Below, one piece after another: positions 36,001-54,000 of a DNA stretch of 64,000 nucleotides (position 1 is its first letter; each line of letters opens with the position of its first letter). Position numbers: made by a program. The stretch comes from Candidatus Binatia bacterium (GTDB lineage: Bacteria; Desulfobacterota; Binatia; HRBIN30), in NCBI GenBank assembly GCA_937925685.1, contig CALAMI010000008.1:77518-141517 (forward strand), written 5' to 3'.

Positions 36001-39000
36001 AGTTAGCCGCTCTTCAAAACCTGGACCGGCAGTTGCGCGAGAAGGTGCAGCAGATCGAACACCTGCGCTCCCGACTGAACGAAGGGCGCGCCCGGATTGA
36101 AGCTGGGCGGCAGTTGGTATCCTCTTTGCGGGAGCAATTGCAAGCGCTCGACCTCAAGCGGCGCGACCTTGATCGACGGTTGACGGAAGAGGATGCGAAG
36201 ATGCGTGACCGCCGGATGCGTTTGCAACGTGTCCGCAACGAGCGAGAAGCGCAAGCCTTGCAGCGCGAAATCGACCTGGGGAGGCAGGCAAATCAACAAC
36301 TGGAATCGGAGATGCTGCAGGTTCTCGAGGCGCTGGAGGCATTGGAGGGGCAAGCCAAGGCGGCCGAAGACGATCAAAAGGCTTTGGAAAACAACTTCCA
36401 TGGGGAGAGCGCGCGGCTCGAGGAAGAACTCGAACGATTGGCGGGGGAAGTCGAGCAAATTCGCAGGGAACGGGATCGGCTGGCAGCATCTGTCGATGCT
36501 TACTTGTTGCGTCGTTACGAGCAGATCTTTGAGCGCCGCGAAGGCCTGGCCGTGGTGGAAATCCAAGAGGCGATTTGTGGCGGTTGTCACATGAATCTTT
36601 CTCCGCAGTTTTTTATCGAACTTCAGCGTGGCGACGACATTCGACTTTGCCCCAACTGCCACCGGATTTTGTACTTCCGTGGCGACCGGGGTGGTCGTGA
36701 GGCTTAGCCGCGGCTATAAGCTAGCTTCGCGGAGAGGGCCGGGTGGCCGCTCGGGAATTGCTCCCGGGAGGAAAGTCCGGACTCCATAGGGCAAGGTGGC
36801 CGCTAACGGCGGCCTCGAGCGATCGAGGGAAAGTGCCACAGAAAAGAGACGGCTGGCAAGCTGAGCTTGTCAGAGACGGTGAAAACGGTGTGAAAACACA
36901 CCAGCATTCGTGGCGACACGAGTGCTCGGCAAACCCCACCTGGAGCAAGACCAAAGTGAGGGCGCGCGGCCCGCGCCAACCCTCCGGTACGTCGCACGAG
37001 GCGGTTGGCAACAACCGTCCCAGAGGAATGGCCGCCACCCAGCCTAAACAGGCGGGAACAGAATCCGGCTTATAGGCCCTCTCCGTCTTCTTTCGAACGC
37101 AGCTCCACTCGTCGGGGTGGTGACGATTTAGCCAATCTCCCATCGTGCGAGCGGTGACACGATCGAGCGAGCGGACTACGAAGGGCTTGCCGCAGCACGA
37201 CGCGGAAGCAAGCGGTACGGACTCTGACGCTTGCTGAGCTAATGACGTGCGTGCGTGAGCCGGGTAACCCGCCCAAGGTGGTGGATCCGATCCCTTTACA
37301 CCTCCATCGTGGGAACACGGCCGATCGCTGTGGTGCTGACTGTCTCGTGGTCAGTATTGACCAGAAGGGCAGTTCAAGCTGCTCGCGGCAGCTCATTGTT
37401 GACTTCGCCTGCCGAGGTGGGGTAAGAGGGAGCAAAGTGGCGCCAAGTGGGACGAAGTGGTAAGCCAGGCGGTTGTAGGATCCAGCATGTTCCGAGGGAC
37501 TTTTCAACACACCATTGACGACAAGGGTCGCGTTTCTGTGCCAGCCCGCTTTCGTGCATTTCTTCAAGCCGTCAACGACGAACGAGTGGTGATCACCAAC
37601 TTCCGGGTTGAAGGTTACCCTTGCCTGGATGTCTATCCTTACGCTTCGTGGGTGCGACTGGAGGAAAAGCTTCAGCAAAAGCCGCAATTTGACCCCGGGG
37701 TTCTGCGATTCGTAACTTACTACGTTGCAAGCGCCCACGACTGCGAGCTGGACAAGCAGGGCAGAATTTTACTTCCGCCCACCCTTAGGGAATACGCGAG
37801 ACTCACGCGCGAGGTCGTTTTCGCCTCCGCAATCGACAAATTTCGCATTTGGGACCTTGAGAATTGGCAGAAGGTGCATTCGGCCGCGAGTGAGGTCACG
37901 AGTCAACCCGAATTGTTATCGCAACTGGGTGTCTAGCCGTGCACGACACTGTCTTTCGACTCAGTCGAACGCTGCCATCCAACGTGGTCAGGTCAACGCG
38001 TCCGCGCAATATGGCTTTAGCCAATGTGCAGGAGCGGCAGCTAGTTCTACGGGCGCTCGTCGTCACGGTGATCGTGTCTGCGGTCATTGCGGCTGCGAAT
38101 GTTTCGGTGCGGCTTCGGGTCGCCGAACTCGCGTACAGACTAGCAGCAACGGAGGAAGCCATCCAGCGTCTCCAGTTGGAGCGTCGCGAATTGCTGGCGC
38201 AGGTCGCCCTGGTAGACGAACCGCAACGACTACTGCATCTAGCGCAAATGAGGCTTCAGCTGCTTCCGCCAGCAGCCAATCGGAGGATCGTACTGCCGTG
38301 AAGTATTTTTTGCGCTTGACGGAATTCCGCCTTCGCTTAGCAAGGTTTTTCTCCATTGCTCTGTTTGCCATGTGCTTTGCCCGTGCCGGCTACTTGTGCC
38401 TGTTCCAGGTGGAGTTTCTTCACTCACGTGCTCGGCAGCAGCACATGCTGCAGGTGTCCGCGCCCCCTGAGCGGGCCTCGATCGTGGACCGAAACGGGCA
38501 AATTCTGGCACTCACACTGGAAGCCGCAGACGTCTACATTCGGCCTGCGAAGTTCAAGCCGCAGACTGCGCCGCTGGTGGCCGAAGCTCTGCAGATCTCC
38601 CCAGAGTTGGTGCGCCAGCGTGCCGATGTGTCTGCGCCGTTTGTGTGGCTTGGGCGCAACGTTCCACGCACGGAGGCAGCAAAACTCGCCTCGCTTCGGC
38701 TTGAAGGCGTGGGTACTGAGCCCGCGCGGCGACGCGTGTATCCCATGGGGCCGTTAGCTGGCCAAGTCCTCGGCACTGTGGGTGTTGACCTCGAAGGGTT
38801 AGCTGGGCTCGAGCTAAAGTACGATCGTTTTTTGCGCGTGAACGGGCAGTCCAGTATCTCCGAGCGGGACGCGCGCGGGCGCCGAATGAAAAGACAGTTG
38901 CAGCAGCCAGCACGGAACGGGAGCGGTGGTTTTCGGCTGCAGCTCACTTTGGACGCAACGTTGCAGCGCTTTACCGAAGCGAGCTTGAAAAAAGGAGTCG

Positions 39001-51000: not shown

Positions 51001-54000
51001 TGGTCACGCCGTTAACTTGATGGTGCAAAGAAACCTCCAGGGGGTTGAGATAATCGCTTTAAACACCGATGCTCAGGACCTGGCCGCAAACCTGGCGCCG
51101 GTGAAGATCCAGTTGGGGGAGAAACTCACCCGTGGGCTGGGTACGGGGGGCAACGTGGAGCTCGGCCGCGAGGCCGCCGTGGAAGCAAGTGATGTGATTC
51201 GGCGCGCACTGCAAGGCTCAGATCTGGTGTTTATTGCCGCGGGTATGGGCGGTGGCACGGGGACAGGAGCTGCACCAGTGGTGGCGCAAATTGCTCGTGA
51301 ATTAGGAGCCCTGACCGTCGGCATGGTGACTAAACCCTTTGCCTTCGAGGGGGAGACGCGGCGCAAACGAGCGGAGGACGGGATCCGGACGTTGCGGGAG
51401 TTCGTCGACACTTTAATGATCGTTTCCAATGAGCGGCTTGCCAGCGTCGTCGGGGAAAACACCTTCTTCCTGGAAGCGTTCCGCCAGGTCGATGAGGTGC
51501 TGTTCCAGGCGGTTCGAGCCATTGCGGACTTGGTGACAGTCCACGGCTTCATCAACCTTGACTTCGCCGACGTCCGAGCGGTGATGTCGGAAAAGGGGTT
51601 GGCGCTGATGGGATGCGGCTCGGCAACGGGTGAAGATCGTGGAGTTCGTGCGGCCGAAGCAGCAATGAACGGCCCCTTATTAGAAGGGGTCTCCATCCAA
51701 GACGCCCGCGGCGTCCTAATCAATATCACCGGCAGCGCAACGATTACCTTTGGCGAAGTGTACGCTGCCGCAAGTCTGATTCGTCAGCAAGTAAAAGACG
51801 ACGCGAACGTAATTTTTGGCGCGGTGATCGACGAAACCATGGAAGATGAAATTCGGGTCACCGTCGTCGCTACCGGTTTCAAAGACGCCTACATCGAGCG
51901 ACCAGCTGCGGACACACGCAGCCCTCGGTGGGCTCAGACCCCAGGCGCGGCGCATGGAGCGGACGGGAGCCGTACTGCGGTTGCGAAGGAAGAACCTCGG
52001 CGCGAGTCGAGTCACAAACAAAGAGTGTTTGTGGGTTGGGTAGAAGATGGCGACGAGGAGCCCGTGTTTCGCCCATCGTCTGGATCGAGGCGGCGCGTGG
52101 CCGTACCCGACGAACCGCTATCCGAGGAAGCGGAGACTCCTTATTTGTTAAATCGGGATTCCACCGAGAAAGAGGACTTGGACATTCCGGCATTTCTTCG
52201 GCGCAGAGGTGGCTGAAAGGCTGCCTGCCTGGGCGAAGTTGCGTAGCCTGCTCTTGAAGCTATAGCTGGGGCTGTTGGTTAGCGCAGAGCAGCCCCTTAT
52301 CCATGGTCCTGCAGAAGGCGGGGTATTCGGCCAGCGCCCAGACGAGGTTTTTTTGTTTCCGAAGAAAAAAGCGGGCGCACTACGAATTTGCCTCTTATAC
52401 CCGAATCAATACCGCGTAGCCATGGGGAGCCTCGGCTTCCAAACTGTGTACAGAATCTTCGACCAGTTTCCGGGCGTCACCTGCGAGCGCGCGTTTCTCC
52501 CGGGGCGAGAAGCCCCCCAGCGGCGTGGCGATCTCAGAACGCTCGAGACGGGAGCGCGCGTTCGTGATTTCGACCTTCTTGCATTTTCCGTGTCGTTCGA
52601 GACAGATTATTGGCACCTTGTCGATCTTCTCGATCGTGCCGGCGTGCCAGTTTGGGCTTCGCAGCGGCGAAGTGGCCCCTTGGTCATTGCGGGCGGTCCG
52701 GCAGTGTTTCTCAACCCAGAGCCTATCGCCAACTTTGTTGACGCCTTTTTGATCGGCGAAGCGGAGGAGATGCTGCCGGAGTTTCTGGGGTTACTTTTCG
52801 ACTGTGGCCTGGAAGATCGCGACCGGTTTCTTCGTGAGGCGGCTAGGCAGATTGGGGGTTGTTATGTGCCTAAGTTTTATCACCCGCAATACGACGGCCC
52901 TCATGTTGTTAGCCTGAACTATGACGGGCCCGGGGAGCCACGGGTTCAACGCCGCATCGTTTATCACTTGGATCGGTACCCAACGACCACAGCTGTGTTG
53001 GCGGCAGGAGCGGTGTTCGGTGACATGGTTTTGGTCGAAGCGAGCCGTGGTTGCCAGTGGGGCTGTCGGTTTTGTGCCGCTGGCTACATGTACCGCCCGT
53101 TGCGAAATCGCTCGGTCAGTCATCTGGCCGATGCCGTGCGGGCGGGATTGCAGCAGCGTAAGACCGTCGGTCTGGTCGGCGCCGAGATGGCTAGCGTCCC
53201 CGGAGTCGCGCATTTGGCTTCCCTCGCAGCCGAGGCCGGGGGGCGGCTGTCTCCCTCTTCGCTCAAGGCGGATTGCGTTACACCTGATCTTGCCAGAGCG
53301 CTCGCCGCCGGAGGTACACGAACGGTGACAGTGGCACCTGAAGCTGGCTCGGAGCGGATGCGGCGGGTGATCAACAAAAACCTAACGGAAGCAGACATCT
53401 TGCGTGCGGCGAACCTATTGGTCGGAGAGGGAGTTCCGGACCTAAAGCTCTATTTCATGTTTGGCCTGCCCGGGGAAGAGTGGGAGGACGTCGAAGCGAT
53501 TGGAGAACTGGTGGAAAAAATCCATGCGAAGTTGCGGGACAAAGAAGGTCGCCGCAGCCGTGTGGGAAAAATCACGGTGTCGGCAAATCCCTTCGTACCC
53601 AAGCCGTGGACGCCTTTTCAATGGGACCCAATGATGAGAATTCCAGAACTTCGGCAGCGCGCGCGCACACTGGAGAAGATGTTAACCAAGCTTCCTGGTG
53701 TGCGGTTCGCCTGCGAGTCTCCTCGGGAGTCATATTACCAAACGCTTTTGTCTCGAGGCGACCGCCGTGTGGCTTCGTTCATCTTTGCGGTTCGGCAATC
53801 GGGAGGAGATTGGTGGGGGGTGATTCGGGCGTGGGCGCGTCAAGACCTAAGTTCGGCTCCTTGGGCGCAGGATGGTCCACCGCCGGACGCTTACGTTTAC
53901 CGCAGGTACGAGGAAGACGAACTGCTCCCCTGGGACTTCATCGATCATCGCGTCAGCAAAGCGTATTTGCGTAACGAGCGGCGCAAGGCTTACAGTGGGC

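What the first reader, a model, noticed from the sequence alone, without database searches (positions are those of the whole stretch)
37487..52216. dcw cluster lacks rsmH (mraW), murE and ddl
Observed gene order is mraZ-ftsL-ftsI-murF-mraY-murD-ftsW-murG-murC-murB-ftsQ-ftsA-ftsZ, with tight or overlapping junctions. mraZ stops at 37936 and ftsL starts at 37939, leaving no room for rsmH. ftsI (ends 40250) is followed directly by a single Mur ligase whose NDAYNANP and VLVKGSxxxxMEEVV motifs identify it as MurF, not MurE. murB (ends 48674) is followed directly by ftsQ with no ddl. In the canonical cluster all three missing genes are present.
Basis: partly seen in the sequence, partly recalled or inferred. 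Interest (0 to 1): 0.5.

Follow-up and report, generated by a model that had tools for sequence, protein, structure and literature searches.

The report
Binatia cell-division cluster missing rsmH, murE
This is an intact cell-division and cell-wall (dcw) operon from an uncultured Binatia bacterium in which two normally fixed genes, rsmH and murE, are missing from their usual places throughout a whole clade; it is a real but modest evolutionary variant, and I could not find where those genes now sit.

Summary
Window 37487-52216 encodes mraZ-ftsL-ftsI-murF-mraY-murD-ftsW-murG-murC-murB-ftsQ-ftsA-ftsZ on one strand, with overlapping or near-touching junctions. The single ligase after ftsI is MurF. 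The small ORF after mraZ is FtsL, not an rsmH remnant. No rsmH, murE or ddl homolog lies anywhere in the 64 kb.

It is not an assembly artefact. The same order and the same upstream synteny occur in five independent assemblies of class Binatia, with MurF identity from 100% down to 50%. These five form a 100%-bootstrap clade. Its sister lineages keep the canonical mraZ-rsmH-ftsL-ftsI-murE-murF order at the same chromosomal position.

In a broad reference sample, rsmH followed mraZ in 49/49 loci. murE preceded every dcw-embedded murF. ddl was present in only 14/34 clusters. So the ddl absence is ordinary, while the rsmH and murE absences are rare.

The most likely explanation is one lineage-specific excision or relocation of the two genes, with all three functions encoded elsewhere. 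That last step is inferred: every route to the rest of these genomes was exhausted without finding them. Interest is modest. This is a new variant of a well-known cluster.

The parts
35976..36707 (+). CT398/CdsZ-like zinc-ribbon gene; a conserved upstream neighbour that marks the locus as the positional ortholog of canonical clusters
   Evidence: NCBIfam NF047363, E 2.9e-18. The same gene lies upstream of mraZ in relatives and in the canonical sister loci L014/L015/L016/L035.
36731..37088 (+). RNase P RNA (class A) directly upstream of the mraZ promoter region
   Evidence: Rfam RF00010, 262.6 bits, E 1.6e-84. blastn finds it at the same position in canonical sister loci.
37392..37462 (+). Putative mraZ promoter (TTGACT -35-like hexamer), followed by three AAGTGG repeats 10-11 nt apart (about 37436-37462) that look like MraZ operator boxes
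   Evidence: Read directly from the sequence. The same TTGAC...(A)AGTGG-repeat layout is seen upstream of mraZ in most of the relatives and canonical clusters compared (clear in L085, L086, L088 and L091, weaker in L087, L089 and L090). The consensus promoter scan did not call it. That these are MraZ boxes is inferred from what I recall of MraZ operators.
37487..37936 (+). mraZ
   Evidence: PF02381, E 8e-30; TIGR00242, 115 bits against a cut-off of 98.
38011..38301 (+). ftsL (alternative GTG start at 37939). It occupies the place where rsmH + ftsL normally lie.
   Evidence: One transmembrane helix followed by a coiled coil. Weak FtsL NCBIfam hits, E 5e-6. DivIC hits in 5/5 orthologs and FtsL hits in 3/5. 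hhalign probability 99%, E 6.8e-18, against the ORFs between rsmH and ftsI of canonical clusters.
38298..40250 (+). ftsI (class B PBP with a C-terminal PASTA domain)
   Evidence: PF03717, PF00905 and PF03793; 31% identity to E. coli FtsI, E 2e-66.
40254..41681 (+). murF, starting 3 nt after the ftsI stop; no murE between them
   Evidence: TIGR01143, 404 bits against a cut-off of 288.6; the murE model scores 142 against 257. Domain-wise BLAST shows both the N-terminal domain and the rest are MurF-like. Motifs confirmed.
41681..42757 (+). mraY
   Evidence: TIGR00445, 425 bits.
42754..44091 (+). murD
   Evidence: TIGR01087, 405 bits.
44088..45254 (+). ftsW
   Evidence: TIGR02614, 376 bits against a cut-off of 337.5.
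45254..46333 (+). murG
   Evidence: TIGR01133, 304 bits.
46333..47754 (+). murC
   Evidence: TIGR01082, 555 bits.
47736..48674 (+). murB, followed directly by ftsQ; no ddl
   Evidence: NF010480, 316 bits; junction of -4 nt.
48671..49501 (+). ftsQ
   Evidence: PF08478 POTRA_1, E 1e-13; PF03799, E 1e-8.
49498..50865 (+). ftsA
   Evidence: TIGR01174, 324 bits.
50918..52216 (+). ftsZ
   Evidence: TIGR00065, 394 bits.

Best explanation
The region is a complete, functional dcw operon of an uncultured bacterium of class Binatia, closest to 'bacterium HR30' (order HRBin30).

It is laid out as a single same-strand, tightly packed gene array behind an mraZ promoter with MraZ-box-like repeats. Most stop and start codons overlap, so co-transcription and translational coupling are likely (inferred).

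Compared with the ancestral order mraZ-rsmH-ftsL-ftsI-murE-murF-..., two genes, rsmH and murE, were cleanly removed from the locus. This happened once, in the common ancestor of a large Binatia clade, after it split from lineages that keep the canonical order at the same chromosomal site. ddl was already outside the cluster in the neighbouring lineages.

Every other step of lipid II synthesis is encoded here (MurC, MurD, MurF, MraY, MurG, MurB). So MurE and Ddl are almost certainly encoded elsewhere in the genome and expressed independently of the dcw operon. rsmH is probably also elsewhere. This last step is inferred, not shown.
For: **Gene identities and junctions:**

**The missing genes are not nearby.** None of the three was found in the 64 kb window, or within 10 kb of the cluster in four relatives.

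**The order recurs in independent assemblies**:
- ENA ERZ6863514, a 436 kb contig.
- A Logan assembly.
- GCA_001879665.1.
- GCA_026415395.1.
- GCA_046327925.1, a 966 kb contig.
- JGI 3300037479.

All share the upstream synteny prmA, (GDPD), CvpA, dnaG and a CT398-like zinc-ribbon gene before mraZ, plus gshB and rsmE where the 10-kb flank reaches that far (all but JGI 3300037479). MurF identity runs from 100% to 50%.

**Lineage.** Names given by sources are 'bacterium HR30' and 'Candidatus Binatia bacterium'.

**Single origin.** A neighbour-joining tree of six concatenated dcw proteins (2,520 columns) puts the five reduced loci in one clade with 100% bootstrap. That clade is sister to the canonical locus L095 with 99.5% bootstrap.

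**Positional orthology.** Canonical sister loci have the CT398-like gene and RNase P RNA immediately upstream of mraZ, exactly as in the window.

**No remnants.** The ftsI-murF gap is 3 nt, and 45-46 nt in L086 and L087. The mraZ-ftsL gap is 2-118 nt.

**Regulatory layout.** MraZ-box-like repeats are conserved.

**Background.** Lineage-specific omission of genes from the dcw cluster is a known phenomenon (PMC8871954, read).
Against: - The three genes were never located in any genome of this clade. Three MurE-based searches returned only MurE genes embedded in canonical clusters or belonging to other lineages.
- No contig-length match links any recovered MurE to a contig that carries the reduced cluster.
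- Co-transcription and MraZ control are inferred from layout only. The consensus promoter and terminator scan was uninformative.
Confidence: 0.8

Rival explanations
1. True loss of function. The clade has lost rsmH altogether, so its 16S rRNA lacks the m4C1402 methylation, and/or it makes the peptide stem with a non-orthologous or highly divergent enzyme in place of MurE or Ddl.
For: None of the three genes was found in any sequence of the clade that could be reached, nor among the best MurE relatives of the nearest canonical lineages. From my own knowledge, rsmH is dispensable in E. coli, so its loss is plausible.
Against: Only about 20-64 kb per genome could be inspected, so absence is untested. 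The intact murC, murD, murF, mraY, murG, murB, ftsW and ftsI imply an ordinary pentapeptide pathway that needs MurE and Ddl. MurF keeps all of its domains and motifs.
Confidence: 0.12
2. The locus is a second, partly degenerate copy of the dcw cluster, and a canonical cluster with rsmH and murE lies elsewhere in the same genome.
For: Public MAGs labelled 'Candidatus Binatia' carry canonical clusters (L005 and L009; L095-type MurE).
Against: - The reduced locus sits at the same chromosomal position (CT398-like gene, RNase P RNA, mraZ) as the canonical clusters of the sister lineages.
- It contains intact ftsZ, ftsA, ftsW and ftsI.
- The canonical loci form separate clades in the concatenated tree.
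- No contig length is shared between the lists of reduced-type MurF and canonical-type MurE proteins.
Confidence: 0.03
3. Assembly or binning artefact: rsmH and murE were dropped by misassembly of this contig.
For: None beyond the fact that the source is a metagenome assembly.
Against: The same junctions appear in at least five independent assemblies from different projects and assemblers, at sequence divergence down to 50%. The reading frames abut or overlap cleanly.
Confidence: 0.01
4. The single ligase is a MurE/MurF hybrid, formed by a deletion between the adjacent paralogs, and carries out both steps.
For: tblastn showed a 48-residue stretch of the N-terminal domain that is 54% identical to a MurE. 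A MurE NCBIfam model had its best stretch in the N-terminal domain.
Against: The N-terminal domain (residues 1-115) is 38-46% identical to MurF N-domains of relatives, against 31-47% (over shorter stretches, with weaker bit scores) to MurE N-domains. Bona fide MurF controls from canonical clusters show the same pattern. The remainder is 36-46% identical to MurF and 25-27% to MurE. Its length (475 aa) is that of a single ligase.
Confidence: 0.02

Closest known systems
Canonical dcw cluster (E. coli K-12 mraZ-rsmH-ftsL-ftsI-murE-murF-mraY-murD-ftsW-murG-murC-ddlB-ftsQ-ftsA-ftsZ)
   Same: The same genes in the same relative order, on one strand and tightly packed. mraZ comes first, behind repeat boxes, and ftsQAZ comes last.
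   Different: It lacks rsmH, murE and ddlB. It has murB between murC and ftsQ, which E. coli lacks. FtsI carries a PASTA domain.
Canonical dcw clusters of sister Binatia / Desulfobacterota-like lineages (L095, L009, L014, L015, L016)
   Same: Positional orthologs: a CT398-like gene and RNase P RNA lie upstream in L014-L016. dcw proteins are 48-56% identical. ddl is also absent in L015 and L016 (L014 keeps it after murB; L009 and L095 end before that region). FtsL is homologous.
   Different: These keep rsmH after mraZ and murE between ftsI and murF.
Other lineage-specific reduced dcw clusters. From the literature: ftsW missing in Thermodesulfobacteria, murB and ddlB missing in the FBC group, ftsA and ftsZ missing in Chlamydiae and Planctomycetes (PMC8871954). 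From my own knowledge: the B. subtilis cluster lacks murF, murC and ddl. Seen here: L090 and L093 lack mraY and murG; L098 and L099 lack murF.
   Same: The same kind of event: a clade-wide omission of particular genes from an otherwise conserved cluster, with the functions encoded elsewhere.
   Different: The particular genes differ. rsmH was never missing next to mraZ in the reference sample (49/49), and murE was never missing before a dcw-embedded murF.

Membership tests
dcw (division and cell wall) gene cluster | mraZ as the first gene, behind a promoter with direct-repeat MraZ boxes | tested here: met
   mraZ passes TIGR00242. Three AAGTGG repeats 10-11 nt apart lie downstream of TTGACT, and the layout is conserved in relatives. 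MraZ binding itself was not tested.
dcw (division and cell wall) gene cluster | rsmH (mraW) as the second gene | tested here: not met
   There is no Methyltransf_5 or RsmH similarity anywhere in the window. The mraZ-ftsL gap is 2 or 74 nt.
dcw (division and cell wall) gene cluster | ftsL-ftsI pair | tested here: met
   FtsL by profile-profile comparison, probability 99%. FtsI by its domain set.
dcw (division and cell wall) gene cluster | murE-murF tandem after ftsI | tested here: not met
   Only murF is present. The ftsI-murF gap is 3 nt.
dcw (division and cell wall) gene cluster | mraY, murD, ftsW, murG and murC in that order | tested here: met
   All pass their NCBIfam equivalog cut-offs.
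dcw (division and cell wall) gene cluster | ftsQ-ftsA-ftsZ at the 3' end, on the same strand as the rest | tested here: met
dcw (division and cell wall) gene cluster | ddl between murC or murB and ftsQ (a variable feature) | tested here: not met
   The murB-ftsQ junction is -4 nt and there is no Ddl similarity. ddl is absent in 20 of 34 reference clusters as well.
MurF (UDP-MurNAc-tripeptide:D-Ala-D-Ala ligase), for the ORF at 40254-41681 | Full-length match above the family cut-off, with three Mur-ligase domains and a P-loop | tested here: met
   TIGR01143, 404 bits against 288.6, covering positions 1-418 of the 418-position model. PF01225, PF08245 and PF02875 are all present. GSTGKTT at aa 123.
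MurE (for the same ORF) | Match above the MurE family cut-off | tested here: not met
   TIGR01085, 142 bits against 257. Identity to MurE proteins is 25-27% outside the N-terminal domain.
FtsL (for the ORF at 38011-38301) | Small bitopic protein with a transmembrane helix and coiled coil, encoded just upstream of ftsI, matching FtsL/DivIC profiles | tested here: met
   Transmembrane helix at aa 10-30 followed by a coiled coil. Single-sequence HMM hits fall below the cut-offs. hhalign against FtsL of canonical clusters gives probability 99%, E 6.8e-18.

The most novel reading that the evidence does not exclude
A large clade of Binatia has truly dispensed with RsmH, so that MraZ is uncoupled from its near-universal partner and 16S rRNA lacks m4C1402. 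Alternatively or additionally, the clade adds the third residue of the peptidoglycan stem with an enzyme that is not an orthologous MurE. In either case the gaps in the cluster would reflect lost or replaced functions rather than relocated genes.
Probability: 0.1. Interest if true: 0.55.

Novelty: new variant of a known kind. Interest (0 to 1): 0.3.

Why it matters
[quoted passage not shown] The mraZ-rsmH pair and the murE-murF pair are among its most constant parts: 49/49 and all dcw-embedded cases in the sample examined here. A clade-wide, cleanly derived exception gives three things.
- A synapomorphy that separates one group of Binatia orders from the rest.
- A natural case in which MraZ works without an adjacent rsmH.
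- A natural case in which murE expression is uncoupled from the division operon.

It does not change what we know about how the pathway works, and the genes are most probably just elsewhere. So the value is mainly for comparative and evolutionary study of the cluster and for annotating Binatia genomes.

Tried and rejected
**1. Is the small ORF an rsmH remnant?** Rejected.

**2. Is the ligase MurE, or a MurE/MurF chimera formed by deletion between adjacent paralogs?** Rejected. Both the N-terminal domain and the rest are MurF-like, and control MurF proteins behave the same way.

**3. Is it an assembly artefact?** Rejected, because independent assemblies agree.

**4. Locating murE in the clade.** All attempts failed.
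- Homolog search with the MurE of a canonical Binatia MAG (L005). The top 120 hits were all at least 60% identical, i.e. that MAG's own clade.
- Search of the 50%-identity representatives with the same protein gave 150 representatives.
- Filtering those representatives by a mirror-tree correlation, amino-acid composition and best references gave about 20 candidates.
- Cluster look-ups of the candidates gave no organism names.
- Context look-ups of P0255, P0350, P0375, P0409 and P0287 all showed canonical or near-canonical dcw contexts.
- A metagenome scan with MurE-specific motifs returned 79 loci. Nine had murE outside a dcw cluster, but none could be tied to Binatia.
- A homolog search with the MurE of the closest canonical relative, L095, again returned only that relative's own clade.

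**5. Walking beyond the window ends.** Two look-ups were wasted because my ORF starts did not match the called genes.

**6. Literature.** No paper in the library describes the cell-wall genes of Binatia.

**7. The genome-contig scan hit its row limit.** It therefore missed the closest species representatives.

**8. Structure prediction of the tandem unknown paralogs.** The model was low-confidence (pLDDT 48), so no fold search was run.

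
Full report
**What is there**

ORF listing and HMM scans show thirteen same-strand genes between 37487 and 52216: mraZ, a 96-120 aa ORF, ftsI (with a PASTA domain), one Mur ligase, mraY, murD, ftsW, murG, murC, murB, ftsQ, ftsA and ftsZ.
- Using the gene starts of the public gene caller, the junctions are -19 to +3 nt. The exceptions are mraZ-ftsL (74 nt, or 2 nt with the GTG at 37939) and ftsA-ftsZ (52 nt).
- The ligase after ftsI scores 404 bits on the murF model (cut-off 288.6) and 142 bits on the murE model (cut-off 257).
- It is 37% identical to E. 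coli MurF and 25% to E. coli MurE.

The small ORF has one transmembrane helix and a coiled coil.
- It gives weak FtsL/DivIC hits.
- As a five-member ortholog profile, it matches the ORFs between rsmH and ftsI of canonical clusters with hhalign probability 99%, E 6.8e-18.
- So it is FtsL, not a fragment of rsmH.

tblastn with RsmH, MurE and Ddl from E. coli and from four other bacteria found no homolog anywhere in the 64 kb apart from the paralogous ligases. HMM scans of the other long ORFs showed no candidate replacement.

**Surroundings**

Directly upstream lie a tRNA-Met, a CT398/CdsZ-like zinc-ribbon gene and a class A RNase P RNA at 36731-37088. Between the RNase P RNA and mraZ there is a TTGACT hexamer followed by three AAGTGG repeats 10-11 nt apart. 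The same layout precedes mraZ in most of the relatives and unrelated canonical clusters compared. It looks like the MraZ operator arrangement known from other bacteria (from memory; binding was not tested). A consensus promoter and terminator scan added nothing.

**Whose genome, and is it real**

The window is part of a 436 kb metagenome contig. The MurF protein is 78% identical to that of 'bacterium HR30' and 75% and 57% identical to proteins named 'Candidatus Binatia bacterium'. This places the organism in class Binatia, near order HRBin30 (taxonomy of the group: PMC8262859).

Gene contexts of MurF relatives at 78%, 75%, 57% and 50% identity come from four further assemblies. All show the same order, mraZ-ftsL-ftsI-murF-...-ftsZ, and the same upstream genes. 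The arrangement is therefore neither an artefact nor specific to one strain.

**How unusual**

I analysed 80 loci around MurF genes of species representatives from many phyla.
- rsmH followed mraZ in 49 of 49.
- murE lay immediately before murF in 66 of 72. In five of the six exceptions murF sits outside a dcw cluster, mostly as ddl-murF pairs. The sixth (L072) still has murE before murF, with a gap over 400 nt.
- ddl was present in only 14 of 34 clusters, and it is also absent from several of the nearest relatives (L015, L016, L035).

So the ddl part of the finding is ordinary, and the rsmH and murE parts are rare. Other rare variants turned up in passing: clusters without mraY and murG (L090, L093) and clusters without murF (L098, L099). 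The literature notes that many lineages are characterised by the lack of particular genes from the cluster (PMC8871954).

**How it arose**

Some other MAGs labelled Binatia (L005, L009), four loci that group with them (L014-L016, L035) and a metagenome contig (L095) keep the canonical order.
- A neighbour-joining tree of six concatenated dcw proteins (2,520 columns, 200 bootstraps) puts the five reduced loci in one clade (100%).
- That clade is sister to L095 (99.5%). The L005-type clade comes next.
- In the L005-type loci the CT398-like gene and RNase P RNA lie immediately upstream of mraZ, as in the window.

The reduced cluster is therefore the positional ortholog of a canonical cluster. The simplest history is a single removal of rsmH and of murE in the ancestor of this clade. 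No remnants are left: the gaps are 2-118 nt and 3-46 nt.

I tested whether murE was lost by a deletion that fused murE and murF into one gene. The N-terminal domain and the remainder of the ligase are both MurF-like, and control MurF proteins show the same degree of cross-similarity to MurE. That idea is rejected.

**Where the genes went**

This is the step I could not show. The tools give at most 10 kb on either side of a named protein, so the rest of these genomes was out of reach. I tried to obtain the clade's MurE indirectly.
- Two homolog searches, seeded from the canonical relatives L005 and L095.
- A search of 50%-identity representatives.
- Composition and mirror-tree filtering of candidates.
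- Five context look-ups.
- A metagenome scan with MurE-specific motifs.

Every MurE recovered was either inside a canonical cluster or from an unrelated lineage. None shared a contig length with the contigs that carry the reduced cluster.

That murE and ddl are elsewhere follows from the intact remainder of the pathway. I rate it very likely. For rsmH, which from my own knowledge is dispensable in E. coli, true loss remains a real possibility.

**Comparison and verdict**

The locus works like, and is, a dcw cluster. It meets the defining features of gene content, order, strand and mraZ leadership. It fails only the presence of rsmH, murE and the variable ddl. It is a clade-specific variant that I did not find described in the searchable literature.

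The interest is modest. It is a rare break in the most conserved part of a famous cluster and a useful marker within Binatia. There is no sign of new biochemistry unless whole-genome searches show that the genes are truly missing.

Noticed in passing
window 24720-29719 (+): Four tandem paralogous ORFs of 419, 393, 411 and 425 aa. Pairs A/C and B/D are 45% and 42% identical, and cross-pairs about 33%. Each has an N-terminal signal-like hydrophobic stretch and conserved cysteines. None has a Pfam or NCBIfam hit. A 415-aa ORF without Pfam hits sits at the same position in a relative (L087). An AlphaFold model built from the four-sequence alignment is all-beta but low-confidence (pLDDT 48), so no fold search was run.
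   Followed up: partly
window 36731-37088 (+): A class A RNase P RNA gene lies between a CT398/CdsZ-like zinc-ribbon gene and the mraZ promoter. The CT398-like gene recurs upstream of mraZ in all relatives examined, and both it and the RNase P RNA are found there in the sister lineages with canonical clusters, the only loci searched for the RNA.
   Followed up: yes
L098, L099 (JGI soil contigs, GC 0.61-0.63); L090, L093/L094: Other rare dcw variants. L099 has mraZ-rsmH-ftsI-murE-mraY-..., with no murF in the cluster. L090 and L093 have murE-murF-murD-ftsW-murC, with no mraY or murG.
   Followed up: no
window 2904-13352: A group of genes for DUF1329 (LolA-like), an MMPL/RND-type transporter, a Ycf48-like beta-propeller and two DUF1302 proteins. 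It is possibly an outer-membrane uptake or export system.
   Followed up: no
window 52275-54059 (+): A B12-binding radical SAM protein (TIGR03960 family; 384 bits, below the cut-off of 462) is encoded 58 nt after ftsZ on the same strand.
   Followed up: no
window 55163-57224 (-): A pair of ArsA/GET3-type ATPases most similar to mycobacterial BagB and BagA, both below the family cut-offs.
   Followed up: no
L014-L016 and L035, between mraZ and rsmH: In the canonical sister lineages there is a gap of about 400 nt between mraZ and rsmH that may hold a small extra gene. L088 has a STAS-domain gene at that position.
   Followed up: no
protein representatives P0242-P0366: About a quarter of the best MurE representatives are proteins of roughly 950-1100 aa, most of them MurE-MurF fusions. 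Fusion of the two adjacent ligase genes is therefore common in nature.
   Followed up: partly
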